Below are positions 21,333 through 59,194 of a stretch of DNA of 64,000 bases, piece by piece. The first letter of the stretch is position 1. The number at the start of each line of letters is the position of its first letter. The notes beneath the pieces were generated by a model. That model was not told the origin of the DNA. It was given only the letters and a program-made list of their open reading frames with translations, and made no database searches. This DNA is from SAR324 cluster bacterium (lineage in GTDB: Bacteria > SAR324 > JACQKK01): the NCBI GenBank assembly GCA_022574555.1, contig JACZRV010000002.1, positions 21,995 to 85,994 of the forward strand, read 5' to 3'. The position numbers and the translations under genes are program-made.

Positions 21333-21419
21333 ATTTTGGCAGCGAACGTAGGGGCGCACGGCGGTGCGCCCGGTGGTGGGGGATGTCTCGAATGACGGGC
21401 GCACCGCCGTGCGCCCCTA

Positions 21420-23063
21420 CTAATCCCGGCCGCTGCGCCGTACACGCAGCAGGTAGTGGAAGTCCAGGTATCCGCCGGCATCCCAATTCAAATAGCCGTG
21501 CCGGTCCGCGACTTCCAGATAGAACGCGTCGCCGGTCAGGCTGTGGGTAAATTTCTTCGCGTTGCCGAGGTGGATCGTCTTCTTCAGGAACCCCCCTTGG
21601 TCGTAGATGCGTATCACTGGCTGCAGGTTGGTGCGGCCCAGCCGGTACCATTCGATTTCGATCTCCTCACCGGGTTGCAACACATCGCCGAGAAAGATAT
21701 CCGCGTCGCCCCGGGAATCGACGTGACCGTAGATCATCGCGCCGAAACCGATGGGATTGGCCCGGTCGAACCTGCCGTTGTCTTCCAGTTCGGCGAAGGT
21801 GGGGCCCCAATCCTCCAGTTCTGGGTGGGCGGCGATCAAATCCTCGAACAGCCCCGCCACCATCGGTGTGCGCAGGGGCGGCGGGAAGGGCACCATCTCA
21901 TGGTTTTCCAGGTTGGGTCGCCGATGAACGCGCATCTCGAGCGTATCGTTGTGCCAATAGACCCGGCGCACCTGAAATGCGCCGAACTCCCTCCCGCTCA
22001 ATTCCGCTTCCAGTGATGCGCGATCTCCCGGGTAGACACCTTCGTAGGTGACCCATTTATCGGCGAGGCGGGAGAGCACGAATCCCTCGAACAGGCTGTT
22101 CGGGCGAAAGAAGTCGCGTTCGAACGTCTCCTCATCGTAGAGCGAGTGCAACCCCAGCACCCGCAGACGCAAGATTTCGCCCCCGGCGCTCCAGGCCTCG
22201 GGTTCCCCGATGCGGCCCGGTTGCATCTGCGCCAGGGCGGGTTCGATCACGCTCCGCATCACCGCTTCCACCAGCGCGGAAGTGACGGGCGACAGGGGCG
22301 GCAGGGGATCGCGTGCGGGTTGTTCGATAGAAGCCAGCAGCGCCCCTGTGCGCACCAGATAAAAAGCAGCGCTCAGGACCGTCCGTGACTCCTGATCGTC
22401 GTCCGTGGGCGTTCGGGTCGCCAAAACCAACACCGCCGGCGCGCCGGGGGCGATCCGCGCCAGCAACGCTCGCCGGGCCATGCGGCCGGTGAAGGGGCTG
22501 GCCAAAAGCGAAACGTCGCGCGCCTCGATCGCAGATTGCGCCGCCACGTCGAAATTCAAAAGTGCCAGCCTTTCCGTCAAGGCGGCAAACGCCGCCTCGC
22601 GCACGGAAGCCGAGGCCAGCAGCGGGTCGTTGCGGGGATACAGAATAGCCAGCCGCCGTTTGCGATCCCCCAGGATAGGCAGGGAGAGTTCCCTCAGATC
22701 GGCCACGAGCGCGGGCCGATCGACCTGGGCTTCCAATGCGGCGTAGTATTGCGTGCGGTCCAGGGATGTTTCGAGCTTGCGAATCCGGTAGGAACTGATG
22801 TACCGGTCCAGCCGGGAGAGGATGCGCCGTTTGAGATCGCCCCGATATAGTTGGAGCCATTCGGCAGCGACCAGCGACCGGAGCGCTTCGCGTACGACGG
22901 CCTCCTGGGCCAGCCGCACGGCGCGCAGCCGGGCGTCGTCGAGATCGTCCTCGAAGATGGGAACCCGTGCCTCTCCGTTGCGCGTGATCAGCCGTTCCTG
23001 GGCCGTGAGGGCGCCCCCCAGGAGCAAAACGGCCAACGACAGTATCAGTACGGGTTTCCTCAT
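21420..23063 (-). CDS. Secreted hypothetical protein, 547 aa.
   Basis: Signal peptide MRKPVLILSLAVLLLGGALTAQE. No recognisable domain. Last gene of a three-gene secreted-protein cluster. Confidence 0.6.
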   Translation of the reverse strand: MRKPVLILSLAVLLLGGALTAQERLITRNGEARVPIFEDDLDDARLRAVRLAQEAVVREALRSLVAAEWLQLYRGDLKRRILSRLDRYISSYRIRKLETSLDRTQYYAALEAQVDRPALVADLRELSLPILGDRKRRLAILYPRNDPLLASASVREAAFAALTERLALLNFDVAAQSAIEARDVSLLASPFTGRMARRALLARIAPGAPAVLVLATRTPTDDDQESRTVLSAAFYLVRTGALLASIEQPARDPLPPLSPVTSALVEAVMRSVIEPALAQMQPGRIGEPEAWSAGGEILRLRVLGLHSLYDEETFERDFFRPNSLFEGFVLSRLADKWVTYEGVYPGDRASLEAELSGREFGAFQVRRVYWHNDTLEMRVHRRPNLENHEMVPFPPPLRTPMVAGLFEDLIAAHPELEDWGPTFAELEDNGRFDRANPIGFGAMIYGHVDSRGDADIFLGDVLQPGEEIEIEWYRLGRTNLQPVIRIYDQGGFLKKTIHLGNAKKFTHSLTGDAFYLEVADRHGYLNWDAGGYLDFHYLLRVRRSGRD

Positions 23064-47280: not shown

Positions 47281-48084
47281 TCAGAATTTGATCCTGCCCT
47301 CGGTGGGACTGGAGGCGGCGGCGTAGGATTTACGGGGGATGCGGCCGGCCAGATGGGCCTTGCGGCCGGCCTCGCAGGCCTGGCGCATGGCCTGGGCCAT
47401 CAATACGGGATCGCGGGCGCTGGCCACGGCGGTATTGAGCAGCACGCCGTCGCACCCCAGTTCCATGGCCACCGCCACGTCGGAGGCGGTGCCCACGCCG
47501 GCATCGACGATGACCGGTACGCGCACCAGATCGCGGATGAGGGAGATGTTATAGGGGTTGAGGATGCCCATGCCCGATCCGATGGGAGAACCCAGGGGCA
47601 TCACCGCAATACAGCCCAGGTCCGCCAGCTTTTTACAGATGATGGGATCGTCCGTGCAATAGGGCATCACATGGAAGCCCTTCTCCACCAGGATGCGGGC
47701 GCCCTCCAGCACTTTCTCCGCGTCGGGGTAGAGCGTGTCTTCGTCGGCGATAATCTCCAGTTTGATGAAATCGGTGCCCAGGGCCTCCCGTGCCAGCTCG
47801 GCGGTGAGCAAGGCGTCGCGCACCGTGTGGCAACCGGCGGTGTTGGGGAGGAGCTGGTAGCCCTCCTTGCGCAGCAGGCTGATCAGGTTTCCGCCCGTGG
47901 GGTCGTCCAGGTTCACGCGCCGGATGGCCACCGTCACCATTTGCGCCCCGCCGGCCCGCAGAGCCTTGAGCAGCACATCGTGGTTGGGATAGCGGGCGGT
48001 GCCCATGATCAACCGGGAATCGTAGGTTGTCCCGGCCAGGATCAAGTGATCGCCCGTGGCTTCCGATATGGGTAATTCCATCAT
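47281..48084 (-). CDS. thiG: Thiazole synthase.
   Basis: Strong similarity to ThiG (…LPNTAGCHT…KLEII…[10 protein letters not shown]…). The start at MMELP overlaps the thiS stop (ATGA). Confidence 0.9.
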
Positions 48085-48287
48085 CCCCCTTGAGTGGCCT
48101 GCACGATTTCCAGGGCATCGCCGGGTGCCACCTGCTTGCCGCCCCATTGCTCCCGCCGCACCAGCTCACCATTGAGCGCCACGGCGATCCCGCCTGCGGC
48201 ATCGGGCAACGCGAGTTGCCTCAGCAAGGCCTCCAGGGAAAGCGGCTCGCTAATTTCGTGGGCTTTTCCGTTTACTGTGATTTCCAT
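48081..48287 (-). CDS. thiS: Sulfur-carrier protein ThiS.
   Basis: 68 aa ending in …ATQGG with a C-terminal Gly-Gly. Immediately upstream of thiG. Confidence 0.8.
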
Positions 48288-48359
48288 CGGGGGAGAAGCC
48301 GGCTACGGACTCCGAGCCGGATAATCTTTTCTCGCGAATGACGCCCCGGCGGCGGGGTT

Positions 48360-48387
48360 GTAGGGACACGGCATGCCGTGTCCCTAC
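48360..48387. repeat. Perfect 28-nt palindrome GTAGGGACACGGCATGCCGTGTCCCTAC, copy 1 of a repeated element.
   Basis: Exact inverted repeat with a GCATGC core, 70-100 nt upstream of the thiS start. A near-identical half-palindrome occurs at 59124-59142. Confidence 0.8.
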
Positions 48388-48669
48388 GTACGCCCAATTT
48401 ATACAGGCATTGCATCCGGTCGCATAAAAACGAACCCTTGACCCGCTGTACCGCCTGCCCAATCGAGGAGGCGGGAGGACGAGTCCTCCCGCAATATGCC
48501 TTTTGTGACGAGCCTTTACAAATCCAGCATACATGGAAAGTCCGGGATACGGAACGCGGCAACGGCAGAAATTGGCAAGTCCACGAGGAGATGGTAATTT
48601 TGAGGTAAAATGACTCGAATCGGTACGCCTCCTCCTGGGGCGACCCAGACGAGATGGCCGAAGTTGCCT

Positions 48670-48729
48670 GACGCCACGATGTCTGACGCGACGGTGTCTG
48701 ACGCCACGGTGTCTAACGCAACGCTATCT
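48670..48729. repeat. Four tandem 15-bp direct repeats (gacgccacgRtgtct) about 55 nt upstream of the ior start codon.
   Basis: gacgccacgatgtct / gacgcgacggtgtct / gacgccacggtgtct / aacgcaacgctatct. Confidence 0.8.
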
Positions 48730-48784
48730 GCCCGCAACATAGAGACCGGCGATCGAAGTCGAACGACCGGAACTGGAGACAGGG

Positions 48785-51700
48785 ATGAATGAACGCGCTT
48801 TTTCACTCGAGGACAAGTATCGGGTAACCGAGGGACGGATCGCCATCACCGGCGTTCAGGCACTGGTACGAATTCCCATGGATCAGCGCCGCCGCGACGT
48901 GGCGGCGGGATTGAACACGGCCACCTACATCAGCGGATACCAGGGATCGCCCTTGGGCGAATTCGACAAGCAGATTCAGGCTGCCCGCGCTCTGCTCAAA
49001 GAACACCACGTGGTTTGGCAGCCGGGGATCAACGAGGAGATCGCGGCCACGTCGGTATACGGGACGCAGCTGCTGGATAGCTTCCCGGAGCCCAAGTACG
49101 ATGGCGTGCTGGGGATGTGGTACGGCAAGTCCCCGGGTGTGGACCGGACGATGGATGCGTTCAAGCACGGCAATTTCCTGGGCACGTCCAAGTACGGCGG
49201 GGCATTGGCCCTGGGTGGCGATGACCATGCCTGCAAGAGCTCCACGCTCCCCAACTCCAGCGATGTGGCGTTCTATGACGCCAATTTCCCGACGCTTTAT
49301 CCCGGCAATCCCCAGGAGGTATTGGAGTATGGGCTGCACGGGTTCGCCATGTCCCGTTACTCGGGACTGTGGGTAGCGATCAAGGTGGTGACCAACGTCG
49401 CCGACGGCGGCGGGATTATCGATGTCTATCCCGAGATGGCCCTCAGCGTGATACCCGAGCTTGAGATCAACGGCTGGCCGTTCGAGAAATCCCAGGACAT
49501 AGCCCTCATCCCCCCCAACAGCATCGAAACCGAGCGCCAGATACACTACGAGCGCATGCTGGCCGCCACGGCCTATGCCCGTATCAACGGCTTGAATCGC
49601 ATCGTCGTGCAGAGCGGCAGCGACCGCATCGGATTGATTTCCGCCGGAAAGGCCTATTACGACCTGGTGCAGGCTCTGGAAATGCTGGGGCTGGGCGAAG
49701 AGGACCTGCGGCAGGCCGGGATCCGGCTGTTCAAGATGGGAATGATCAGCCCCATCGAGACCGGCACCCTGGTGGAATTTGCCGACGGGCTGGAGGAAAT
49801 CATCGTGGTGGAGGAAAAGCGCGGCTTCATGGAGACCCTGATTCGCAGCGCGCTCTACAATCATCCCCGGCGGCCCTCGGTCTATGGCAAGTTCGACAAG
49901 CATGATCGAACCCTGTTCCCCATCCATAGCGAGCTCCAGGTGGACCAGATCGCCCGCATCCTGGCCCATTACTTCGCCGAAAAGCTGGGGCGCGTGGACC
50001 TGGTGGAACGGGCCAAGTGGCTCTTCGACATCGATGAGCGCAAATACGAGGAAGTAGAAGGACGCACGCCTTATTTTTGCAGCGGCTGTCCTCACAATAC
50101 CTCCACCAATCTGCCCGAAGGCGCCATAGCCGGAGGCGGCATCGGATGCCATGCCATGGCCATCTGGATGGATCGCGGGATCGCCTACTTTACGCAGATG
50201 GGCGGGGAGGGGGCGCCCTGGATGGGGCTCTTCCCGTTTACCCAAAAAGACCATTTCTTCCAGAACATCGGCGACGGCACCTATAGTCATTCCGGCAGTA
50301 AATCCCTCGAAGCCTGCATCGCCTCGGGGGTCAATATGACCTTCAAGATCCTATACAACTCGTCGTCGGCTATGACCGGCGGTCAAGCGGTGGTGGGCCA
50401 GCTTTCCACGACCGATCTGGCCCACAAGCTGGTGCGTGAAGGGGTCACCGAGGTGGTGATCGTGCCGGAGGACATGGGCCGCTATTCCCGAAAAAAGATC
50501 GGCGAAAAGATTCGGGTGGCGCCCAAGAGCGGCTACAACAAGGTCATGCTGGAAATGCAGAAGGTCAAGGGAGTCAGCATCATCATCTTCGATCAGCAAT
50601 GCGCGGCGGAAAAACGCCGGCAGCGCAAGCGGGGAATCCTGGAGACCCCGCCCCAACGGGTCTATATCAATGAAGCCGTCTGCGAGGGGTGTGGCGATTG
50701 CGGCGTTAAATCCAATTGCCTGTCGGTCATGCCCTTCGAAACCGGGTACGGCCGTAAGACCCGCATCCACCAAAGCTCGTGCAACATGGACTACTCGTGC
50801 CTGAAGGGCGACTGTCCCGCCTTCATGACGGTCGAGTTGGGCCATGGAACGCGCATAGGGACGAAGGAGGGGTTTGCCTCGCCCCTGGGGGCCGACCTGC
50901 CCGAGCCGGCAACGAAAGCCGATTGCAAGGTGCCCTACACGATCATGCTGGTGGGCATCGGCGGCACGGGGGTGCTGACCGTCGATGCGCTGCTGGTCAC
51001 CGCCGCGCTGATCGATGGAAAGTATGCGCTGCATCTGGACCAAACCGGCCTGGCGCAAAAGGGCGGCCCGGTGCTTTCCAATTTCATCATCAGCGATGAA
51101 CCTCTGAACCGTGCCAACAAGATTGCGGCTGGAGAGACCGACACCCTGCTGGCCTTCGATTTTCTCGCGGCGGTATCCCAGGACAACCTGAACCGGTACC
51201 ATCCCGACCGCACGCGGGCCGTGATCAATTCGGCGACCAGCCCCACGGGGAACACGGTGCGGAATATTCATGCCCAACTGCCCGCCTTGGAGTTTATGCA
51301 GAAGAGGATCGGTGCCTATCTGCGGCCCGATGGGAACACGACGGTGCCGGTGGAAAGGATCGTTGACGGGCTGTTCGGCAACAGTCTGTCCGGCAACGTC
51401 TTCATGGTGGGTCTGGCCTACCAGTCCGGCTTGATTCCCCTCGCCGCCCAATCCATTGAAGCTGCCATCGAGGCCAACGGCGTGGCCGTCAACCAGAACA
51501 TCCAGGCGTTTCGCTGGGGCCGCAAGTATCAGTTCGACCCACGGGCCGTGGATTCGTTGTCGAGTGGCGACTCGAAATCCGCCGATCCCCGCGCCGAGGC
51601 CCTGGCCAGACTGCGCGAATTCGCGCCGAACCGCGTTTCCGATTTTGAGAAACTCGCGGCCAAGATTCCAGGCGCGGAGGCCCTGGCGCAACTGCTCTAC

Positions 51701-52324
51701 CCACGGCTGGCCGATCTCATCCTCTACCAGAATCCGCAATATGCGGCGAAATACCTGGATTACGTGCTGGCCGTGGCCAGCGAGGAACGGCGCAACACAG
51801 CCGGCCGGACGGGACTGGCCGAAGCGGTGGCCCGCTGGTATTTCAAGCTGCTCGCTTACAAGGACGAATACGAGGTGGCCCGGCTTTGGGTTCAGCACGC
51901 CGCGTGGCGCGACGCCAAGGCTGCCTACGAGGGTCCCCTCAAACGGTATTACCAGCTTCATCCACCCATCCTGCGGGCTATGGGAATGAACCGGAAAATC
52001 AAGCTGGGCGAATGGTTCACGCCTGTGCTGAAGGGTCTGGCGAGCCTGAAATTTCTCCGGGGCACGGCACTGGACCCGTTCGGCTACGCCAAAGCCCGGC
52101 GCGAAGAGCGCAGACTCATCGGCTGGTACCGCGACATGGTCGATTCGCTGCTGCCGGCGTTGAACCACGAAAATCACGCTCTTGCCGTCGAGATCGCCTC
52201 CCTGCCGGACAACATCCGCGGCTATGAGTCGGTCAAGGAACGAATGATCGCGGAGACGGAAGAAGAGGCGGAACGGTTGCAAGAGGCCTATCGCAATCCG
52301 CAACAGACTCGCATGGCGATCTGA
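48785..52324 (+). CDS. Indolepyruvate:ferredoxin oxidoreductase, fused alpha-beta form (2-oxoacid:ferredoxin oxidoreductase family).
   Basis: 1179 aa. N-terminal …GVQALVRIP…GYQGSPLG, TPP-binding GDGTYSHSG, and ferredoxin-like CEGCGDCGVKSNC…C…C motifs. Confidence 0.9.
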   Translation: MNERAFSLEDKYRVTEGRIAITGVQALVRIPMDQRRRDVAAGLNTATYISGYQGSPLGEFDKQIQAARALLKEHHVVWQPGINEEIAATSVYGTQLLDSFPEPKYDGVLGMWYGKSPGVDRTMDAFKHGNFLGTSKYGGALALGGDDHACKSSTLPNSSDVAFYDANFPTLYPGNPQEVLEYGLHGFAMSRYSGLWVAIKVVTNVADGGGIIDVYPEMALSVIPELEINGWPFEKSQDIALIPPNSIETERQIHYERMLAATAYARINGLNRIVVQSGSDRIGLISAGKAYYDLVQALEMLGLGEEDLRQAGIRLFKMGMISPIETGTLVEFADGLEEIIVVEEKRGFMETLIRSALYNHPRRPSVYGKFDKHDRTLFPIHSELQVDQIARILAHYFAEKLGRVDLVERAKWLFDIDERKYEEVEGRTPYFCSGCPHNTSTNLPEGAIAGGGIGCHAMAIWMDRGIAYFTQMGGEGAPWMGLFPFTQKDHFFQNIGDGTYSHSGSKSLEACIASGVNMTFKILYNSSSAMTGGQAVVGQLSTTDLAHKLVREGVTEVVIVPEDMGRYSRKKIGEKIRVAPKSGYNKVMLEMQKVKGVSIIIFDQQCAAEKRRQRKRGILETPPQRVYINEAVCEGCGDCGVKSNCLSVMPFETGYGRKTRIHQSSCNMDYSCLKGDCPAFMTVELGHGTRIGTKEGFASPLGADLPEPATKADCKVPYTIMLVGIGGTGVLTVDALLVTAALIDGKYALHLDQTGLAQKGGPVLSNFIISDEPLNRANKIAAGETDTLLAFDFLAAVSQDNLNRYHPDRTRAVINSATSPTGNTVRNIHAQLPALEFMQKRIGAYLRPDGNTTVPVERIVDGLFGNSLSGNVFMVGLAYQSGLIPLAAQSIEAAIEANGVAVNQNIQAFRWGRKYQFDPRAVDSLSSGDSKSADPRAEALARLREFAPNRVSDFEKLAAKIPGAEALAQLLYPRLADLILYQNPQYAAKYLDYVLAVASEERRNTAGRTGLAEAVARWYFKLLAYKDEYEVARLWVQHAAWRDAKAAYEGPLKRYYQLHPPILRAMGMNRKIKLGEWFTPVLKGLASLKFLRGTALDPFGYAKARREERRLIGWYRDMVDSLLPALNHENHALAVEIASLPDNIRGYESVKERMIAETEEEAERLQEAYRNPQQTRMAI

Positions 52325-52416
52325 AATCCCTGCCGGGCGACGCGCGCACCCGGTACGCAAATCGAAGCGGTGCGGGCTCTCGACGCGACCGGCACATCTT
52401 TCATCGGCGGAACGAC

Positions 52417-53466
52417 ATGATTCCGAAAAGTTTACCCGTGGCGATCGGCCCATTCGCCTTGGCCCTGATCCTGTTTGCGGCCCTCGTCTGGATCACCGCG
52501 GGCGCTCCGCTCGCCGTTGGCGCCGAGAGCCCGGCCAACACTTTGGTAGGGCGGGTCGACGGCGATCCGATCTACCGGGAGGACCTGCACGACAAGGAAA
52601 TCGCCGAGACGAGACAGAAACTATACGATCTGGAGCGGTCTTCGTTACGGGAAAAAAGTCTGGCGCTGCTCCGCGAAAAACATCCCGGCGAGTTTCCCGT
52701 GCCCAAGGTCACCATCCGTGAGGATGACATTCGTAATTTCTACAAATCGGCCGACCTCGGCCGGCAAGGAACCCTGGAAGAACTCGAGGATCGCATCCGG
52801 GATTATCTGGAAATCCGTAAGCTCGCCGATATCGACGAATTGCAGTACCAGACGGCGTTCGCGCAGGGTTACATCGAATCCTTCCTGAAACCGCCCCAGG
52901 TTTATCTGGTCGAGTTGGCTAACGTCGATCGGGCCGCGGTGAAGGGTAATGAAACAGCGCTGGTACGGATCGTCGAGTTCTCGGATTTCCAGTGCCCTTT
53001 CTGCAACCGGGCGCGGCCCGTGGTGCAACAGGTGCTGGAGAAGTATGCGGGACGCGTGCATTTGACCTATCGCCACCTGCCATTGGATCGCATCCATCCC
53101 CGCGCGCGGGAATTGGCCGAGGCCGCGGAATGTGCCGCCGATCAAGGCAGATTCTGGCCTTTCCACGATACCATATTCGACAATTTGGATTCGTTGGCCA
53201 CGGCGGATCTGACGGAATTCGCCGGCAAGGCACAGGTGGAGGATCTGAAAGCGTTCGATGCCTGCGTGCGATCGCACCGGTTCGCCGACCGTGTGGAGGA
53301 AGACCTGCGAGCCGCCGATCGATTGGGCATTGGAGGCACGCCCACCTTTTTTATTGGGCGCCGAGGCGAAAATGGTATGCTGCAAGGCGTGCTTCTGGAA
53401 GGAGCGCAACCCTTTAAGGCATTCCAGGATTCCATCGACCGTATTCTGGCGGGAGAATCAAACTGA
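52417..53466 (+). CDS. DsbA-family thiol:disulfide oxidoreductase with an N-terminal membrane anchor and a helical domain.
   Basis: CPFC active site in FSDFQCPFCNR. DsbA fold (…GIGGTPTFFIG…). Confidence 0.75.
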   Translation: MIPKSLPVAIGPFALALILFAALVWITAGAPLAVGAESPANTLVGRVDGDPIYREDLHDKEIAETRQKLYDLERSSLREKSLALLREKHPGEFPVPKVTIREDDIRNFYKSADLGRQGTLEELEDRIRDYLEIRKLADIDELQYQTAFAQGYIESFLKPPQVYLVELANVDRAAVKGNETALVRIVEFSDFQCPFCNRARPVVQQVLEKYAGRVHLTYRHLPLDRIHPRARELAEAAECAADQGRFWPFHDTIFDNLDSLATADLTEFAGKAQVEDLKAFDACVRSHRFADRVEEDLRAADRLGIGGTPTFFIGRRGENGMLQGVLLEGAQPFKAFQDSIDRILAGESN

Positions 53467-53814
53467 CGCAGCGAGTCGGACCGGCATCACGAATCATCAC
53501 CAAGCCACCCCCGGACGGGAAAAACCCCTGGCCGGTTCCAACGCTCAGCCAACGTTGTCATCCTTTTCTGGGACAGTACACCCTGGCGCCGTCATTTCCG
53601 GCGGGATATCCGCCGCAATCCGCGATTCGTCGAATATTTTGCCCGGCTCAATTTCCCCGCGAAACCAACAGCCGTCCGATGGGTCCAGTGGCGCCGATCG
53701 GGTGACGTGGTAAGCGATATTCGTAGCCCGATTTCCAATGACCGAATCAGCCATTGCGATGATGTCCGCCAATACAGACCGCGCAACCAAATCCGAAAAA
53801 GTGTGCAGACGGCA

Positions 53815-55125
53815 ATGAAATATCGCACGGTCGGAATCCTGGGGTTTATTTACCTGGCGATATTGTTCCTGCTGTCTGTGGGCTGGGAATACCTCTTCGA
53901 GGACATCGTCAATCCGCACCTCATAGCGGATTACCAACCCGAAGATGCCCTGGAACGATGGGAATTCATCATTACCGCAACGATACTCTCGGCCGTCGCG
54001 ATGATCCTCCCTGGAATCTTACTGGTCAAAAACATCGCCGCCCGCAGGCGGACAGAAGAATACTATGAGCGCTTGAATTCAATTCTGCAGGCCACGCCGG
54101 ACATAATCATTATCTCGAGACGCTCCGGCGTCCCCATCTTCATGAACCGTGCGGCCCGGACTACGTTTGGGATCACCAACGAGGAAGACATACCGAAATT
54201 CCGTTTCATCGATTCCCATTCTGCCCAGTCCCGCAAGACAGTGCTCGACGTGGGAATCCCTACCGCTCTGGAAAAAGGACTGTGGGTAGGCGAGAGCGAA
54301 CTGATCGACGGCCAGGGACGATGTATCCCGGTTTCCGAGGTAATCCTCGCCTCCCGGGGAGCGGACGGCAAGATCGAGTATCTGTCGGGCATTTGCCGGG
54401 ACATCACGCCCCACAAGGAAGTCGAACGCCTCAAAAGCGATCTGATCGGCATCGTATCCCACGAGCTGCGGACGCCACTGACCTCCATACAAAGCGCGAT
54501 CAGCATGCTCGGAAGGGAGATTGCACCCGATTTGCCCTCCGACGCGGCCGAGATGCTGCAAATAGCCGAATCCAATACTCGACGCCTCGTGCGGCTTGTG
54601 AACGATATCCTCGATCTGGAAAAAATCGATAACGACAGACTGGAGCTGATCACCGAACGAATCGATTTCCGCACCCTTGTGACGGAGACGCTCCTCGATA
54701 TGACCCCGATGGCGAGCGAGTCCGAGGTGAGATTGATTCACGAAATCGATGAGCAGTTGGTGGTAGAGGGCGACAAAGATCGGCTGGCCCAGGTGATCAC
54801 CAATCTGGTGGGCAACGCGATCAAATTCTCCCGGCGTGGCGGCACGATCACCGTGCGGGCCAAGAACGAAGCCGATGGGCAGGTGCGCCTATCCGTCGAG
54901 GATCAAGGCCCGGGAATTGATGAGCGAAACATTTCCAGGCTGTTCGATAAATTCCAACAGTTCGGCGACCCACCCAAAGGAGGCAAGCAGGGCAGTGGAC
55001 TGGGATTGGCCATTTCCAAGGCCATCATCGATCAGCACGGCGGTAAAATCGGTGTGGATACCGAAATGGGGCGGGGAAGTACTTTCTATTTTATCTTGCC
55101 CCGGTTCCCCGAACAGCCTTCGTAA
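53815..55125 (+). CDS. Membrane sensor histidine kinase with a PAS domain.
   Basis: Two TM helices. H-box SHELRTPLTSI. N/G-boxes (LVGNAIKFS, GSGLGLAISK). Confidence 0.8.
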   Translation: MKYRTVGILGFIYLAILFLLSVGWEYLFEDIVNPHLIADYQPEDALERWEFIITATILSAVAMILPGILLVKNIAARRRTEEYYERLNSILQATPDIIIISRRSGVPIFMNRAARTTFGITNEEDIPKFRFIDSHSAQSRKTVLDVGIPTALEKGLWVGESELIDGQGRCIPVSEVILASRGADGKIEYLSGICRDITPHKEVERLKSDLIGIVSHELRTPLTSIQSAISMLGREIAPDLPSDAAEMLQIAESNTRRLVRLVNDILDLEKIDNDRLELITERIDFRTLVTETLLDMTPMASESEVRLIHEIDEQLVVEGDKDRLAQVITNLVGNAIKFSRRGGTITVRAKNEADGQVRLSVEDQGPGIDERNISRLFDKFQQFGDPPKGGKQGSGLGLAISKAIIDQHGGKIGVDTEMGRGSTFYFILPRFPEQPS

Positions 55126-55290
55126 CCGAGCAACCGAGCAACCGATCGTTCATCCGCGCGAGGCGCCCAGACAAACGAGATCCCGTGGTACGAGAACAAC
55201 CGGCAGGGTGGATGCAAAACCAGTTTGGAAGGGTCTGGAACGGAAGGTCCGCCACCGCCTGCGAAGGCTAGGGCGTGTGCCGGAATAAAG

Positions 55291-55515
55291 CTAAATCAAA
55301 CCCTGGGCTTTCAACACGCGGTACGCGCCCTTGCGGTCCAGGATTTTCAGCCCCTTGGCGCTCATCTTGACCTTGACATAGCGCTTGAGTTCCGGCAGGT
55401 AGATCCGTTTTTTGACGATGTTCACCTTTTGGACGTGACGGCTTTTGTTATTGGCGTGGGATACGCGATTGCCGCTCAGCCCTGTCTTATTGGTGATCTG
55501 ACACTTTCTCGACAT
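55291..55515 (-). CDS. rpmB: 50S ribosomal protein L28.
   Basis: MSRKCQITNKTGLSGNRVSHANNKSRHVQKVNIVKKRIYLPELKRYVKVKMSAKGLKILDRKG matches the L28 consensus. Confidence 0.9.
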   Translation of the reverse strand: MSRKCQITNKTGLSGNRVSHANNKSRHVQKVNIVKKRIYLPELKRYVKVKMSAKGLKILDRKGAYRVLKAQGLI

Positions 55516-55600
55516 CGGCTTCCTGTCTGCTGGGGTAACGGGCTTTAACCTTTCTTTATTAGCTCGATACCTGCTTATTGTCAAATTATGCGGCACGCTC

Positions 55601-56701
55601 ATGAACCGCCGGCAGCAGTTTGAGCGTGCAATCGGCCGGCAATCGCCCGCGGTGAGACAATTTCTAAAAAGAGCGCCAATGCCTGAACGGCTCCTGCTGA
55701 TCCAATTGCGGCGCATCGGCGACGTCCTGATGACCACGCCGGCCGTGCGGGCGTTGGGACAGGCGTTTCCGGAGGCCCGGCTGGTCTATATTACCGAACC
55801 CTCCGGGGCTGAGGTATTGAGAAACAATCCGCACATCGACGAAATCTGGCCGGTCAGCCCCAAGCCGGGATGGAGCGAGATTCTGCGGTTGGTGAGGCGC
55901 ATGCGCCGCCGCCGGTTCGATATCGCGATCGATTTCTATTCTCAGCCCAAGAGCGCCGTGCTGACCCGATTGAGCGGCGCGCCCCGGCGCATCGGATTCG
56001 ATTTGCGGGGCCGCCGCTGGGCTTATACCGAGCCCGTCGAGAAACCACCGGGCCGGCGTTATTCCGCCTTCCACAAGGAAGCCCTGCTGGCACCCTTGGG
56101 GGTAGCGCTGGATGGGCCGTTGCCGGAAATATATCCCGGCGCCGAGCAGCGGGCCTGGGCCGATGCGCTGCTCGCAAGCCTGGGAGTCTCGCATGGGGAT
56201 TTCCTGGTGGCGCTGCTGCCGGTTTCGCGCCAGCCCTACAAGGTGTGGCCGTTGGATCGCTGGGCCCGGCTGGCGGATTGGCTGATCGAAACCACCGGCG
56301 CGAAGGTGCTTCCCTTGTGGGGGCCGGGAGAGGAATCGTTCGTCGTAGGCGTGCGCGGGGCGATGCACGCGTCGATGCTGCCTGATTACCCCATCCCCGA
56401 CCTGCTGCAGATGGCCGCCCTGCTCGATCGGGCCGGCCTGTACGTGGGCAACGACGCCGGACCCCGTCATATCGCCATCGCCGTGGGCACGCCCACCGTG
56501 GGTGTTTTCGGCAGGCCGTGGCCTGAAAACTGGACGCCGCCCGGGGATAGCCGCCATCGTGTCGTGGCCCACGATCCGGGCTGCAAATCGAACTGCACTT
56601 ACCCGCGCTGCGGCCATTTGAATTGTATCAACGGTGTGACGTATGATGACGTTCTTCGAGAAACCCAACTTGCAGTGGAGGACTTGGCTCATGGCCATTA
56701 A
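55601..56701 (+). CDS. Glycosyltransferase family 9 (ADP-heptose:LPS heptosyltransferase-like). The start may be 55679.
   Basis: LLIQLRRIGDVLMTTPAVRAL N-terminal signature of the heptosyltransferase family. Confidence 0.8.
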   Translation: MNRRQQFERAIGRQSPAVRQFLKRAPMPERLLLIQLRRIGDVLMTTPAVRALGQAFPEARLVYITEPSGAEVLRNNPHIDEIWPVSPKPGWSEILRLVRRMRRRRFDIAIDFYSQPKSAVLTRLSGAPRRIGFDLRGRRWAYTEPVEKPPGRRYSAFHKEALLAPLGVALDGPLPEIYPGAEQRAWADALLASLGVSHGDFLVALLPVSRQPYKVWPLDRWARLADWLIETTGAKVLPLWGPGEESFVVGVRGAMHASMLPDYPIPDLLQMAALLDRAGLYVGNDAGPRHIAIAVGTPTVGVFGRPWPENWTPPGDSRHRVVAHDPGCKSNCTYPRCGHLNCINGVTYDDVLRETQLAVEDLAHGH

Positions 56702-57308
56702 GTTCGATTCCGATCGTCTCATCCGCCTGCTCGAGCAATCCGTCGAGCGATGGCACGCCGCGCCTCTGGTGCACGACGCCCGCGAGCCGTTTCTCCAACA
56801 GGTGAGCATACTTCACGGATACAATTTCCAGATATGGCACGAGGAGGACCAAGCCCGCAAAACCGGGGCCGGCGACGATGAAATCGGCCGCGTCAAGCGC
56901 CGTATCGACCCGCTCAATCAATACCGCAACGACGCCATGGAAGCACTGGACGAGCACGTCTTGTCCCAGTTGCAGAACGACGGCGTGGAAGCACCTGAGG
57001 CTGCACCCCTTCACTCCGAGGCGGTGGGCAATATCGTCGATCGCCTCTCCATACTCTCCCTGAAGGCCTACCACATGGCGGAGGAAACGCGGCGCGAGGA
57101 TGCCGGTGGAGCCCATTGCCGCGAGTGCGAAACAAAACTGAGGGTGTTGCAGGAACAACGCGCCGATCTGGCCAAGGCGTTGGAGGATTTGGGAGCGGAC
57201 CTGTCCCAGGGACGCAAGCGGTTCAAGGTCTATCGCCAGATGAAGATGTACAACGACCCCAATCTCAATCCCGTGCTTTATGGGGCTGTACCAGAGGATT
57301 CGGTCTGA
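56691..57308 (+). CDS. DUF4254-like protein commonly paired with GT9 heptosyltransferases.
   Basis: Overlaps the GT9 3' end by 11 nt. Helical protein containing CRECETKLRVL. Confidence 0.45.
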   Translation: MAIKFDSDRLIRLLEQSVERWHAAPLVHDAREPFLQQVSILHGYNFQIWHEEDQARKTGAGDDEIGRVKRRIDPLNQYRNDAMEALDEHVLSQLQNDGVEAPEAAPLHSEAVGNIVDRLSILSLKAYHMAEETRREDAGGAHCRECETKLRVLQEQRADLAKALEDLGADLSQGRKRFKVYRQMKMYNDPNLNPVLYGAVPEDSV

Positions 57309-57450
57309 TGAGCAGACTTGGCGCTACGTGCGGAATTTTGACGTAGTTTCCTCCAGCCGGTAGCCTCATACACAAGACAAATTATTCGCATGTGCGAACC
57401 CAGTCCACCCGAGTGTACCCATTCTTCCCGAATTTCTCCCGGCAATCGTC

Positions 57451-57885
57451 ATGAGTGAAGTCACCACCACAGATGGCAGCCGTGCCCTGCGCCGGCTGGC
57501 CCAGAGAGTGGAGACCGTCGCCACCGGCGGTTTCAAGATCACCTATCTCCCCATGAAACTGACCGTCGAGGCCGGACCGCCCGACCTCGACGCTCACCAC
57601 GAAGGGCAGCCCGGATCCCTGCTCGACATTGCGCTGAAAAACGATATCGAGATCGATCACTCCTGCGGGGGCTTCACGGCCTGTTCCACCTGCCACGTTA
57701 TCGTGCGGGAAGGACTGGAATCTTGCAACGAGACTACGGAGGATGAGGACGACATGCTCGACGAGGCGCCGGGATTGACTCTCAATTCCCGCCTGGCCTG
57801 CCAATGCGTCCCCGATGGCTCGGTCGACATCGTGGTGGAAATCCCCGCCTGGAATCGCAACCTGGCCAAGGAAAGCTCCCACTGA
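57451..57885 (+). CDS. fdx: [2Fe-2S] ferredoxin (adrenodoxin/ISC Fdx-like).
   Basis: Cys ligands in HSCGGFTACSTCHV … LACQC. Confidence 0.8.
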   Translation: MSEVTTTDGSRALRRLAQRVETVATGGFKITYLPMKLTVEAGPPDLDAHHEGQPGSLLDIALKNDIEIDHSCGGFTACSTCHVIVREGLESCNETTEDEDDMLDEAPGLTLNSRLACQCVPDGSVDIVVEIPAWNRNLAKESSH

Positions 57886-58110
57886 ACGCACGAAGGCCAT
57901 TCGCTTGCGCCCAACACGCGGGCGCAATCCGGATTCAGTTTGAGCGAATGTGGGCGGACGTTCAGGGCCACAGCATGTGGGAATCGCCTTGGCCCTGGCT
58001 AATCTCGCCAGGCCGGCATGCCAGTCGGCATGACCCCGTCATCTGCGATTGCCAGCGCGCCAATGCGCGCGATGACGAGGCCCCCTCGCATCGGAGAGGG
58101 ATCAGTCCGC

Positions 58111-58923
58111 TTACGGCTTCCGCGCAGTAAAGTTGATCCCCACGGTGCCGAAAGCCTCCGCGTTCGAGCTTTGGGGCGCCCCGGCGAACACCTCGGCTTT
58201 CCAGGTAATCGCGAAATCCTCGAACCCAGCGGCTTTGACCACGGCTGCAAGCTCTGCTTCCAGCAGAGCGCCCGCGATTCACCCGGTCCAGAGATCGATC
58301 TTTTGCTTGGCCGATTCGGGAACCTGCCTGTTCACCATGATGTCGGCCATCTGAAAACGGCCCCCCGGCTTGAGCATGCGAAATATTTCTTTGTAGGCGC
58401 CCAGCTTGTTGGGGCAAAGGTTGACCACGCCATTGGAAATAACCACATCGGCCCAGCCGTCGCCGACGGGTGTTTCCTCCAGGTAGCCCATCTTGAATTC
58501 CAAATGCGGAATTTGCATCTTCCCTTGCCACATGCGGGCTTTATCCAGCATTTCATCGGTCATGTCGATTCCGATCACGGCGCCCGCTGGGCCGACCTGA
58601 TGGGCCGCGATGAAACTATCGATACCGGCACCGCAGCCCAGGTCGACAACCCTTTCCCCCGGTTGCAGCAACCCGATGCTGAACGGATTGCCCGTGCCCG
58701 CGAACGACTCCACGACGCCCTCGGGGATGCCTTCCAGCCACTCGTCCTGATATTCGACGATCTTCGCCAAAGCCCGGCCGGTGTGGAAGTGAAAACCCTT
58801 GTTGGGATTCGCTGCGACTTCCCGATACTCCTTCTTGATCGCGGATCTCAGAGTTTCCTGGTCCAACCCTTCGGGAACTTTTACCGCTTCCATGATTTGC
58901 CTCCTCACCGATGGTGATCTCAC
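58111..58923 (-). CDS. ArsM-like SAM-dependent methyltransferase (arsenite methyltransferase family) with an in-frame TGA at 58279-58281 read as selenocysteine.
   Basis: Class I MTase motif VVDLGCGAGID. The sequence …QKIDLWTG-TGA-IAGALLEAELAAVVKAAGFEDFAITWK… aligns with the ArsM/AS3MT LWGEC(L/I)GGAL motif, with Sec in place of the conserved catalytic Cys. The frame continues 55 codons to TAA at 58111. Hairpin GCTCTGC-TGGAA-GCAGAGC starts 9 nt after the UGA. Confidence 0.7.
58251..58269 (-). promoter_or_regulatory. Candidate SECIS-like hairpin for the ArsM-like selenoprotein.
   Basis: Minus strand gcucugc-uggaa-gcagagc: a 7-bp perfect stem with a UGGAA loop, 9 nt after the UGA. Confidence 0.5.
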
Positions 58924-59123
58924 GTCTTATGCGCGGCCCAGGGGCCGGACGCACAGCACATAATATACCTGCATTTTATTCAATCTGCCACGGATGGATG
59001 GCATTGGGCGGCAGGATCAGTTTTTCCGGTCCTGCACTCGAAAAACGAAACGCAAACCGGACCAAACTTCACTCACCGCGCAGACCTTGTTGTCCACCAG
59101 CCCCTCCGCCAGTCCGATGGCCC

Positions 59124-59142
59124 GGACACGGCATGCCTGTCC
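59124..59142. repeat. Copy 2 of the GGACACGGCATGCC(G)TGTCC palindromic element, followed by a …CGTCCCTACGCCC… motif also present in copy 1.
   Basis: ggacacggcatgcctgtcc at 59124-59142, located between gnd and the ArsM-like gene. It shares 19 of 20 nt with the core at 48364-48383. Confidence 0.7.
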
Positions 59143-59194
59143 TGAGCCTGCCGAATGGGCCGCGTCCCTACGCCCGGACCTCAGCTTCGGTGGC

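What the first reader, a model, noticed from the sequence alone, without database searches (positions are those of the whole stretch)
48360..59170. Dispersed palindromic element GGACACGGCATGCC(G)TGTCC present at least twice, both times upstream of minus-strand genes
Copy 1 is a perfect 28-nt palindrome (GTAGGGACACGGCATGCCGTGTCCCTAC, 48360-48387), 70-100 nt upstream of thiS. Copy 2 (59124-59142) lacks one G but keeps the arms. It lies about 200 nt upstream of the ArsM-like selenoprotein gene, and the downstream motif CGTCCCTACGCCC is also shared. A 14-bp-arm palindrome with a GCATGC core could be an operator for a dimeric regulator, a REP/BIME-type element, or a restriction-modification-related site. 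I looked for the TPP-riboswitch CUGAGA box upstream of thiS and did not find it. Thiamine regulation of thiSG may therefore be protein-mediated here.
Basis: seen in the sequence. Interest (0 to 1): 0.5.

Follow-up and report, generated by a model that had tools for sequence, protein, structure and literature searches.

The report
GTAG-footed REP palindrome, not an operator
The palindrome upstream of thiS is an ordinary copy of a small selfish DNA hairpin (a "REP" element, spread by a domesticated transposase) found with identical sequence in bacteria of many phyla, and nothing supports it being a thiamine regulatory site.

Summary
A perfect 28-nt palindrome, GTAGGGACACGGCATGCCGTGTCCCTAC, sits 72 nt upstream of thiS. 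A decayed second copy lies 52 nt downstream of the gnd stop codon.

It is not an operator. The exact 20-mer core occurs in at least 120 stretches from about 70 genome assemblies of 15 or more phylum-level groups, always with unrelated flanks. In 84% of copies it carries a GTAG "foot" on one or both sides. Copies are 63% intergenic, against 12% for random positions, and are depleted in divergent promoter regions. In 8 of the 120 loci the copy lies beside or in frame inside a REP-associated tyrosine transposase gene (NHxH, WQ and YIxNNP motifs).

This matches the "double foot" REP of TnpA_REP subclass 2.4 described by Quentin et al. 2018: GT[AG]G, then a stem whose bottom is three G-C pairs, then C[TC]AC, with REPs inserted inside the tnpA_REP gene.

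The window also holds a second GTAG REP family as an inverted dimer (REPIN) at 21348-21420.

This is a new member of a known kind and of low interest. The one curiosity is that the REP sequence is identical across phyla while the associated transposases are only 35-59% identical.

The parts
48360..48387 (.). Intact 'double foot' REP, family A: GTAG + GGACACGG-CATG-CCGTGTCC + CTAC. It lies in the 497-bp divergent spacer between thiS (minus strand) and the 1179-aa POR/DUF6537 gene (plus strand).
   Evidence: Searches show the perfect palindrome. One search gives a 12-bp hairpin, DNA dG -14.1 kcal/mol, z -5.6. In one search it is identical in six contigs of the same species.
59124..59171 (-). Decayed family A REP relic. 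The palindrome core has a 1-nt deletion (59124-59142). About 21 nt of unrelated sequence separate it from its GTCCCTAC foot (59164-59171), which reads GTAGGGAC on the minus strand. It lies 52 nt downstream of the gnd stop and about 200-230 nt upstream of the methyltransferase start.
   Evidence: Searches show the non-chance match. One search shows no significant hairpin (dG -3.4, z -0.5). One search shows it conserved in strain contig L129.
21348..21371 (+). REP family B, left unit of an inverted dimer: GTAG + GGGCGCACGGCGGTGCGCCC.
21397..21420 (-). REP family B, right unit of the inverted dimer. With the left unit it forms a head-to-head REPIN with the GTAG feet outward. The CTA of its foot is the TAG stop codon of the minus-strand ORF 21420-23063.
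   Evidence: One search shows the dimer folding as one 25-bp hairpin, DNA dG -40.2 kcal/mol, z -8.2. Searches find the exact 24-mer in at least 120 metagenome stretches, 3 of them inside or at RAYT-like ORFs.

Best explanation
The palindrome is a repetitive extragenic palindrome (REP) of the GTAG-tagged superfamily. More precisely, it is the 'double foot' type that goes with subclass 2.4 TnpA_REP transposases (RAYT group 4).

Proposed mechanism: when the DNA is single-stranded, for example on the lagging-strand template, the unit folds into a hairpin. The hairpin has an 8-9-bp stem whose bottom is G-C pairs, a 2-4-nt loop, and a GTAG tetranucleotide at its foot. A HUH/Y1 tyrosine transposase encoded elsewhere in the genome recognises the hairpin plus GTAG, then cleaves and rejoins it, which spreads copies into extragenic DNA.

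The copy upstream of thiS is one such insertion. The copy downstream of gnd is a decayed one. The dimer at 21348-21420 is a second family of the same system. Any effect on thiS, such as a stable hairpin in or next to its 5' UTR, would be a by-product and not a dedicated operator.

Shown here: the sequence anatomy, the distribution, the extragenic bias and the association with RAYT genes in other genomes.
Inferred: that a RAYT exists in this genome, and that it processes this REP. No subclass 2.4 enzyme has been assayed here or in the papers I read.
For: (1) Anatomy. GTAG lies directly at the foot of a perfect hairpin, with three G-C pairs at the stem bottom and CTAC at the other end. [quoted passage not shown] (2) Spread. 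The exact 20-mer is in at least 120 stretches from about 70 assemblies of 15 or more phylum-level groups, with unrelated flanks. Roughly 0.5 matches are expected by chance in 596 Gb (my arithmetic).
(3) Feet. Of 139 copies, 41 have GTAG on the left only, 48 have CTAC on the right only, 28 have both and 22 have neither.
(4) Location. 63% are intergenic against 12% for random positions in the same loci. Divergent spacers hold 8 of 75 (background 18%) and convergent spacers 23 of 75 (background 19%).
(5) Transposase link. RAYT-like ORFs occur in 8 of 120 loci. They match Pfam Y1_Tnp above its cut-off and have NCBIfam REP_Tyr_transpos as best hit at E about 1e-17. Their motifs NH[VLIF]H, WQ and YIxNNP equal those of subclass 2.4 in Table 1 of PMC6006769. 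The REP flanks these genes (L028, L033, L098, L105) or lies in frame between HuH and Y (L084, L027, L081, L007, L105), which is the feature reported as unique to subclass 2.4.
(6) Dimers. Inverted head-to-head dimers occur in L018 and L022, and a tandem pair in L070.
(7) Variants. Related variants keep the pairing: 5 of 6 two-substitution stem variants and 6 of 8 four-substitution stem variants are fully compensated.
(8) Second family. The window itself holds a second GTAG REP family as a REPIN between convergent genes. That family too lies inside RAYT-like ORFs elsewhere.
Against: - No RAYT-like ORF is present in the 64-kb window (hmmsearch of six-frame translations). The rest of the genome is not available.
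- Only one intact and one decayed copy of family A lie in 64 kb, so high copy number in this genome is not shown.
- All six contigs of the same species carry copy 1, so there is no empty-site polymorphism to demonstrate insertion.
- Copy 1 sits in a divergent spacer, the rarest context for this element.
- The NCBIfam score (about 62 bits) is below that model's equivalog cut-off of 80.
- Biochemical processing has been shown for other TnpA_REP groups (PMC3479197, PMC8266576), not for subclass 2.4.
Confidence: 0.85

Rival explanations
1. Operator for a dimeric transcription factor that controls thiSG, and perhaps the methyltransferase gene, replacing the missing TPP riboswitch.
For: The 28-bp element has perfect dyad symmetry and lies 72 nt upstream of the thiS ATG. 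There is no TPP riboswitch. A TATAAA(T) at 48397-48403 on the thiS strand, which I read by eye and which one search did not call, would place a transcription start next to the palindrome.
Against: The same sequence sits beside unrelated genes in 15 or more phylum-level groups. None of the 120 loci has thiS nearby. The element is depleted in divergent promoter spacers. Most copies carry an asymmetric single GTAG foot. It lies inside and beside RAYT genes. Copy 2 is decayed, closer to the 3' end of gnd, and about 130 nt upstream of the only promoter-like site found.
Confidence: 0.04
2. It is a REP by origin, but this copy has been co-opted. As a very stable stem-loop at or near the 5' end of the thiS transcript, it would modulate mRNA stability or transcription. 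This is not exclusive of the best explanation.
For: The RNA fold of the thiS leader gives a 12-bp hairpin as the dominant element (leader MFE -52.6 kcal/mol, z -4.45). The element and its flanks are invariant in six strain contigs. REPs are reported to affect mRNA stability and termination (abstract of PMC3733652).
Against: The six contigs are almost identical throughout (91% mean column identity, with differences mostly at contig ends and one indel), so their invariance carries no weight. No transcription start data exist and no sigma-70-like promoter was called. The hairpin does not pair with the start-codon region in the predicted fold.
Confidence: 0.1
3. A restriction-modification or other sequence-specific target site (GCATGC core), or the end of an IS200/IS605-type or MITE element.
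For: The core GCATGC is a 6-bp palindrome of the kind many type II enzymes recognise (general knowledge). IS200/IS605 ends also carry hairpins (PMC6006769 abstract).
Against: Conservation extends over 24-28 nt with a GTAG foot, far beyond a 6-bp site. Loop variants such as CACG, CGTG and CTTG occur with intact stems. Flanks are unrelated on both sides, so there is no longer element. The adjacent genes are RAYT-type (NHxH, WQ, YIxNNP), not class 1 TnpA_IS200 (DH[VI]H), and I did not notice a longer IS element around the copies, though I did not search specifically for tnpB.
Confidence: 0.01

Closest known systems
'Double foot' and canonical long REPs associated with TnpA_REP subclass 2.4 (Quentin et al. 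2018, BMC Genomics 19:475, PMC6006769), equal to RAYT group 4 of Bertels et al. 2017.
   Same: GT[AG]G foot directly at the hairpin; three G-C pairs at the stem bottom; C[TC]AC at the other end; cognate genes with NH[IFV]H, WQ and YIxNNP motifs; REPs flanking the gene and inserted in frame between HuH and Y; scattered over many phyla (searches compared).
   Different: This exact sequence was not found in the searchable literature. No cognate gene lies in the window. Base-for-base identity of one REP across 15 or more phylum-level groups is not stated in the parts of that paper I read.
GTAG-tagged REP superfamily (Di Nocera, De Gregorio and Rocco 2013, BMC Genomics 14:522, PMC3733652).
   Same: A 20-40-bp stem-loop tagged by GTAG; singles, head-to-head dimers and clusters; mostly between unidirectional and convergent ORFs; the GTAG end supplying a TAG stop codon, as at 21420; some families shared by distant organisms; occasional in-frame intragenic copies.
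   Different: That survey found GTAG repeats in Proteobacteria, Cyanobacteria, Chloroflexi and the PVC group. Here the same unit is also in Bacteroidota, Bacillota, Acidobacteriota, Fibrobacterota, Patescibacteria and others. I could not see their Figure 1, so I cannot say whether this family equals one of GTAG-1 to GTAG-24.
E. coli REP/BIME with TnpA_REP (RayT/YafM), and the perfect-palindrome REPs of S. maltophilia and Marinomonas (PMC3479197, PMC8266576).
   Same: The proposed mechanism is the same: a HUH/Y1 enzyme binds the folded single-stranded hairpin plus a 5' GTAG. Perfect-palindrome REPs form a recognised second group (abstract of PMC8266576).
   Different: E. coli REPs are imperfect palindromes with a bulge and belong to subclass 2.2 (DHLH, WE, YIHYNP). 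The enzymes assayed are not subclass 2.4. REP insertion inside the transposase gene is reported only for subclass 2.4.

Membership tests
GTAG-tagged REP (rule of Quentin 2018; Di Nocera 2013) | GTAG or GTGG tetranucleotide 0-2 nt 5' of a fully paired stem of at least 7 bp, with a loop of 2-5 nt | tested here: met
   Copy 1 has GTAG at 0 nt, a stem GGACACGG(C) of 8-9 bp and a loop of 2-4 nt. The rule was read.
GTAG-tagged REP | Repeated many times within one genome (tens to hundreds of copies) | not testable with these tools
   Only 64 kb of the source genome is available: 1 intact and 1 decayed copy of family A, plus 2 units of family B.
GTAG-tagged REP | Predominantly extragenic, favouring unidirectional or convergent spacers | tested here: met
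   All units in the window are extragenic. Across loci, 63% are intergenic against 12% for random positions, with the divergent context depleted (using crude greedy ORF calls).
GTAG-tagged REP | Occurs as inverted dimers (BIME/REPIN) as well as single units | tested here: met
   Family A: head-to-head dimers in L018 (1615/1667) and L022 (5304/5356). Family B: a dimer in the window at 21348-21420.
REPtron of TnpA_REP subclass 2.4 (RAYT group 4) | A cognate tyrosine transposase gene with HuH = NH[IFV]H, WQ and YIxNNP motifs, flanked by the REP | tested here: met
   Met in other genomes: 8 of 120 loci, with motifs as in the Table 1 text. For the window's own genome this was not testable. None lies in the 64 kb.
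REPtron of TnpA_REP subclass 2.4 | [quoted passage not shown] | tested here: met
   L084, L027, L081 and L007 encode VGTRHAVSL or TDTACRVPT right after NHxH. In L105 the ORF is frameshifted at the REP.
REPtron of TnpA_REP subclass 2.4 | Stem bottom of three consecutive G-C pairs, and a 'double foot' GT[AG]G ... C[TC]AC | tested here: met
   GTAG-GGG...CCC-CTAC in copy 1. 28-29 of 139 copies elsewhere are double-footed.
REP/RAYT system | The enzyme binds and cleaves the folded single-stranded REP | not testable with these tools
   This needs an in vitro cleavage and strand-transfer assay. It has been shown for other subclasses only (PMC3479197, PMC8266576).
Transcription-factor operator or regulon site | Copies lie at promoters of functionally related genes within a lineage | tested here: not met
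   Neighbouring genes are unrelated across phyla. There is no thiS in the 120 loci, and divergent spacers are depleted.
TPP (THI-box) riboswitch upstream of thiS | Match to Rfam TPP model RF00059 | tested here: not met
   No hit at gathering score in the window and none at E<=10 in 48200-48850.

The most novel reading that the evidence does not exclude
Two REP sequences in this window, family A (GTAG-GGACACGGCATGCCGTGTCC) and family B (GTAG-GGGCGCACGGCGGTGCGCCC), may belong to a small set of 'pan-bacterial' REPs. They are identical to the base in genomes of 15 or more phylum-level groups with 32-66% G+C, although the RAYT proteins next to them are only 35-59% identical. One possible cause is that subclass 2.4 REPtrons carry their REP inside the transposase reading frame, so that enzyme and substrate transfer horizontally as one gene. 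Another is that recognition by this subclass constrains the hairpin almost absolutely. Either would contrast with the vertically inherited, lineage-specific REPIN/RAYT pairs described in Pseudomonas.
Probability: 0.4. Interest if true: 0.5.

Novelty: new member of a known kind. Interest (0 to 1): 0.22.

Why it matters
For this window, it removes a false lead: the palindrome gives no evidence for a protein regulator of thiamine synthesis. It also explains three separate hairpin features (48360, 59124, 21348-21420) as one REP system. More generally, the data show how widely a single REP sequence of the subclass 2.4 type is shared among phyla, including gut Bacteroidota. That is useful for annotation, because these units create spurious small ORFs with peptides such as VGTRHAVSLQ or RDTACRVPT, as seen. 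It may also bear on whether this RAYT subclass still moves horizontally.

Tried and rejected
- TPP riboswitch or any other Rfam family near thiS: nothing.
- Sigma-70 promoter and terminator scans around both copies: no promoter call near copy 1; one weak promoter-like site about 130 nt from copy 2; no terminator at either element.
- Empty-site test: contigs with identical ThiS or Fer2 proteins all come from near-identical strains and all keep both copies. The only more diverged contig (L131) ends 12 nt before copy 2.
- Exact look-ups of gnd, the 1179-aa gene product and the methyltransferase were not on record, so the source organism stayed unidentified.
- RAYT in the window: none.
- Regulon test: no thiS, and no consistent thiG or methyltransferase neighbourhood.
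- Phage vector idea: only 2 matches in 2.9 million viral contigs.
- Literature search for the exact 20-mer: no paper.
- The hope that family B would be lineage-specific and lead to the window's relatives failed. It is as widespread as family A.
- My first probe for RAYTs was the E. coli YafM sequence written from memory. It served only as bait, and the hits were verified with Pfam and NCBIfam.
Full report
**1. Observation**

The plus strand at 48360-48387 reads GTAGGGACACGGCATGCCGTGTCCCTAC, a perfect 28-nt palindrome. No shuffle of the window produced the 20-nt core, even with three mismatches allowed.

It lies in a 497-bp spacer between two divergent genes. These are thiS (48081-48287, minus strand, followed by thiG) and a 1179-aa POR/DUF6537 gene starting at 48785. 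The distance to the thiS ATG is 72 nt.

The second copy, 59124-59142, reads GGACACGGCATGCC-TGTCC. It shares the 14-mer exactly (3 matches against 0.11 expected). GTCCCTAC follows 21 nt further on, and this composite pattern has zero chance expectation.

The motif 'CGTCCCTACGCCC' is shared only as GTCCCTACG plus ACGCCC.

As single-stranded DNA, copy 1 forms a 12-bp hairpin with a 4-nt loop (-14.1 kcal/mol, z -5.6). The copy 2 core does not fold better than shuffles (-3.4 kcal/mol, z -0.5).

Copy 2 is 52 nt downstream of the gnd stop (59195) and about 200-230 nt upstream of the methyltransferase start.

**2. Distribution elsewhere**

My arithmetic gives about 0.5 matches expected by chance in 596 Gb.

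By their record titles, these stretches come from about 70 assemblies. They include Bacteroidota (many gut MAGs), Chloroflexota, Desulfobacterota (Electrothrix), Bacillota, Acidobacteriota, Fibrobacterota, Cyanobacteriota, Patescibacteria, Atribacterota, Gemmatimonadota, Armatimonadota, Calditrichota, Poribacteria, WOR-3 and a gammaproteobacterium. Locus G+C ranges from 32% to 66%.

Lining up the 139 copies shows that the flanks are unrelated. What is conserved beyond the 20-mer is a tetranucleotide foot: GTAG on the left only in 41 copies, CTAC on the right only in 48, both in 28, and neither in 22.

Some copies form head-to-head inverted pairs with the feet outward (L018 1615/1667, L022 5304/5356). 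Others form tandem runs (L033, L070).

With crude greedy ORF calls, 63% of copies are intergenic against 12% for random positions in the same loci. Among intergenic copies, divergent spacers are under-represented (8 of 75, background 18%) and convergent spacers over-represented (23 of 75, background 19%).

Near-variants in the same loci mostly keep the pairing. Examples are GGACTCGGCATGCCGAGTCC, GGGCACGGCATGCCGTGCCC and GGTCAGGGCATGCCCTGACC. Five of six variants with two stem changes, and six of eight with four, are fully compensated.

A catalogue of all GTAG-tagged perfect hairpins in these loci shows about 70 further units. Nearly all start GG(A/G)C.

**3. The associated gene**

I used an E. 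coli YafM sequence recalled from memory purely as bait. I then built an HMM from the hits and found RAYT-like ORFs in 8 of the 120 loci.

They match Pfam Y1_Tnp above its cut-off. Their best NCBIfam hit is 'REP-associated tyrosine transposase' at E about 1e-17, which is below that model's equivalog cut-off. They carry the motifs NH[VLIF]H, WQ and YIxNNP.

The REP flanks these genes in L028 (both sides), L033 (five tandem units just upstream), L098 (abutting the 3' end) and L105. In L084, L027, L081 and L007 it lies inside the reading frame just after the HuH motif. There it is read as VGTRHAVSL or TDTACRVPT, depending on frame and orientation. In L105 the ORF is split into two frames at the internal REP.

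No such ORF lies in the 64-kb window.

**4. Comparison with the literature**

Di Nocera et al. 2013 defined a superfamily of REPs tagged by GTAG. They occur as singles, head-to-head dimers or clusters, mostly between unidirectional and convergent ORFs. Their ends sometimes supply a TAG stop codon, and they are often next to RAYT genes.

Quentin et al. 2018 classified the enzymes. Their subclass 2.4 (RAYT group 4) has exactly the motifs NH[IFV]H, WQ and YIxNNP. [quoted passage not shown] Its REPs have three G-C pairs at the stem bottom, and some have GT[AG]G at one end and C[TC]AC at the other ('double foot'). Uniquely, its REPs are inserted in frame within the tnpA_REP gene between HuH and Y.

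Every one of these points was met by the data above before I read the paper. The element is therefore a member of a described kind. The exact sequence is not in the searchable literature.

**5. The window has more of the same**

A scan for GTAG-tagged hairpins in the window found a second family at 21348-21420: GTAGGGGCGCACGGCGGTGCGCCC, 25 nt, then GGGCGCACCGCCGTGCGCCCCTAC. This is a head-to-head dimer (REPIN) that folds into one 25-bp hairpin (-40.2 kcal/mol, z -8.2).

It sits between convergent ORFs, and its CTAC foot supplies the TAG stop of the minus-strand ORF.

The exact 24-mer is in at least 120 metagenome stretches. In 3 of them it lies within or at a RAYT-like ORF. The source genome therefore hosts at least two REP families of this system.

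**6. Mechanism**

Best explanation, confidence about 0.85: these are REPs. When single-stranded they fold, and a HUH/Y1 TnpA_REP recognises the hairpin plus GTAG foot and cleaves and rejoins it, spreading copies into extragenic DNA.

Binding and cleavage of folded single-stranded REPs, with dependence on GTAG and the stem, have been shown for E. coli, S. maltophilia and Marinomonas enzymes (PMC3479197; PMC8266576). For subclass 2.4 this is an inference.

Copy 1 is an intact singleton. Copy 2 is a relic: a 1-nt deletion, with its foot displaced by about 21 nt. The exact history of copy 2 is unresolved.

**7. The regulatory reading**

However, the palindrome is not thi-specific. None of the 120 loci has thiS, and one weak ThiG-like ORF lies 1.1 kb from a copy. 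Two orthologous Aggregatilineales loci have a methyltransferase, with the element downstream of it.

If the thiS transcript starts upstream of 48387, the hairpin would dominate the 5' leader and could affect mRNA stability. A possible TATAAA at 48397-48403 was read by eye and was not called by the scan. This is untested and secondary.

**8. What could not be done**

Contigs with identical ThiS or Fer2 come from ENA metagenomes and are 11 kb or shorter. All keep both copies, so there is no empty site to show insertion.

Genome-wide copy number and the presence of a RAYT in this organism remain open.

**9. Curiosity**

The RAYT-like proteins next to the identical REP are only 35-59% identical to each other. 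The REP itself is identical across 15 or more phylum-level groups, and only 2 matches occur in 2.9 million viral contigs.

Whether this reflects horizontal spread of REPtrons that carry their REP inside the gene, or extreme constraint on the recognised hairpin, is unresolved. It is the only part of this finding with some novelty.

**10. Verdict**

This is a new member of a known kind and of low interest.

Noticed in passing
window 21348-21420: A second GTAG REP family forms a head-to-head inverted dimer (REPIN): GTAGGGGCGCACGGCGGTGCGCCC, 25 nt, then its reverse complement. It lies between convergent ORFs, and its CTAC foot supplies the TAG stop of ORF 21420-23063. The exact unit is widespread in metagenomes and sometimes lies inside RAYT-like ORFs.
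   Followed up: yes
window 48668-48723: A 15-nt tandem repeat (CTGACGCCACGGTGT, 3.7 copies) lies in the thiS/POR spacer. One strain contig (L122) lacks 30 nt, that is two units, so the array is length-polymorphic within the species.
   Followed up: partly
window 48476-48493: Another perfect hairpin, GGGAGGAC-GA-GTCCTCCC, lies in the same spacer. It is conserved in all strain contigs apart from one variable base just outside the stem. It has no GTAG foot and its function is unknown.
   Followed up: no
L105 2299-2834 (minus strand): The RAYT-like ORF is split into two reading frames exactly at its internal REP (...VGTRHAVSV | RDTACRV...). This suggests a frameshifted pseudogene or an assembly error at the palindrome.
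   Followed up: partly
L131 (contig end), equivalent to window ~59112: The only clearly diverged strain contig covering the methyltransferase-gnd spacer ends 12 nt before copy 2. This is consistent with an assembly break at a repeat or a strain-variable site.
   Followed up: no
window 48250-48562, minus-strand ORFs: Spurious ORFs of 94 and 96 aa read through the palindrome and encode VGTRHAVSLQ and RRDTACRVPT. Such REP-derived peptides can seed false 'hypothetical protein' families in databases.
   Followed up: no
window 58279-58923 and L129 1629-2411: The methyltransferase (ArsM-like) ORF ends at a TGA, and a 43-aa ORF is called just downstream in L129. No SECIS or read-through analysis was done.
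   Followed up: no
whole window: No tRNA, riboswitch or any other Rfam family reaches its gathering score in 64 kb.
   Followed up: partly
L098 828-1636 (Ca. Electrothrix marina contig): One REPtron carries three different REP variants: family A abutting the 3' end of the gene, GTAGGGGCACGGCGCGCCGTGCCCCTAC inside the gene, and GTAGGGGCAGGCCCCTGTGCCTGCCC 82 nt upstream.
   Followed up: partly
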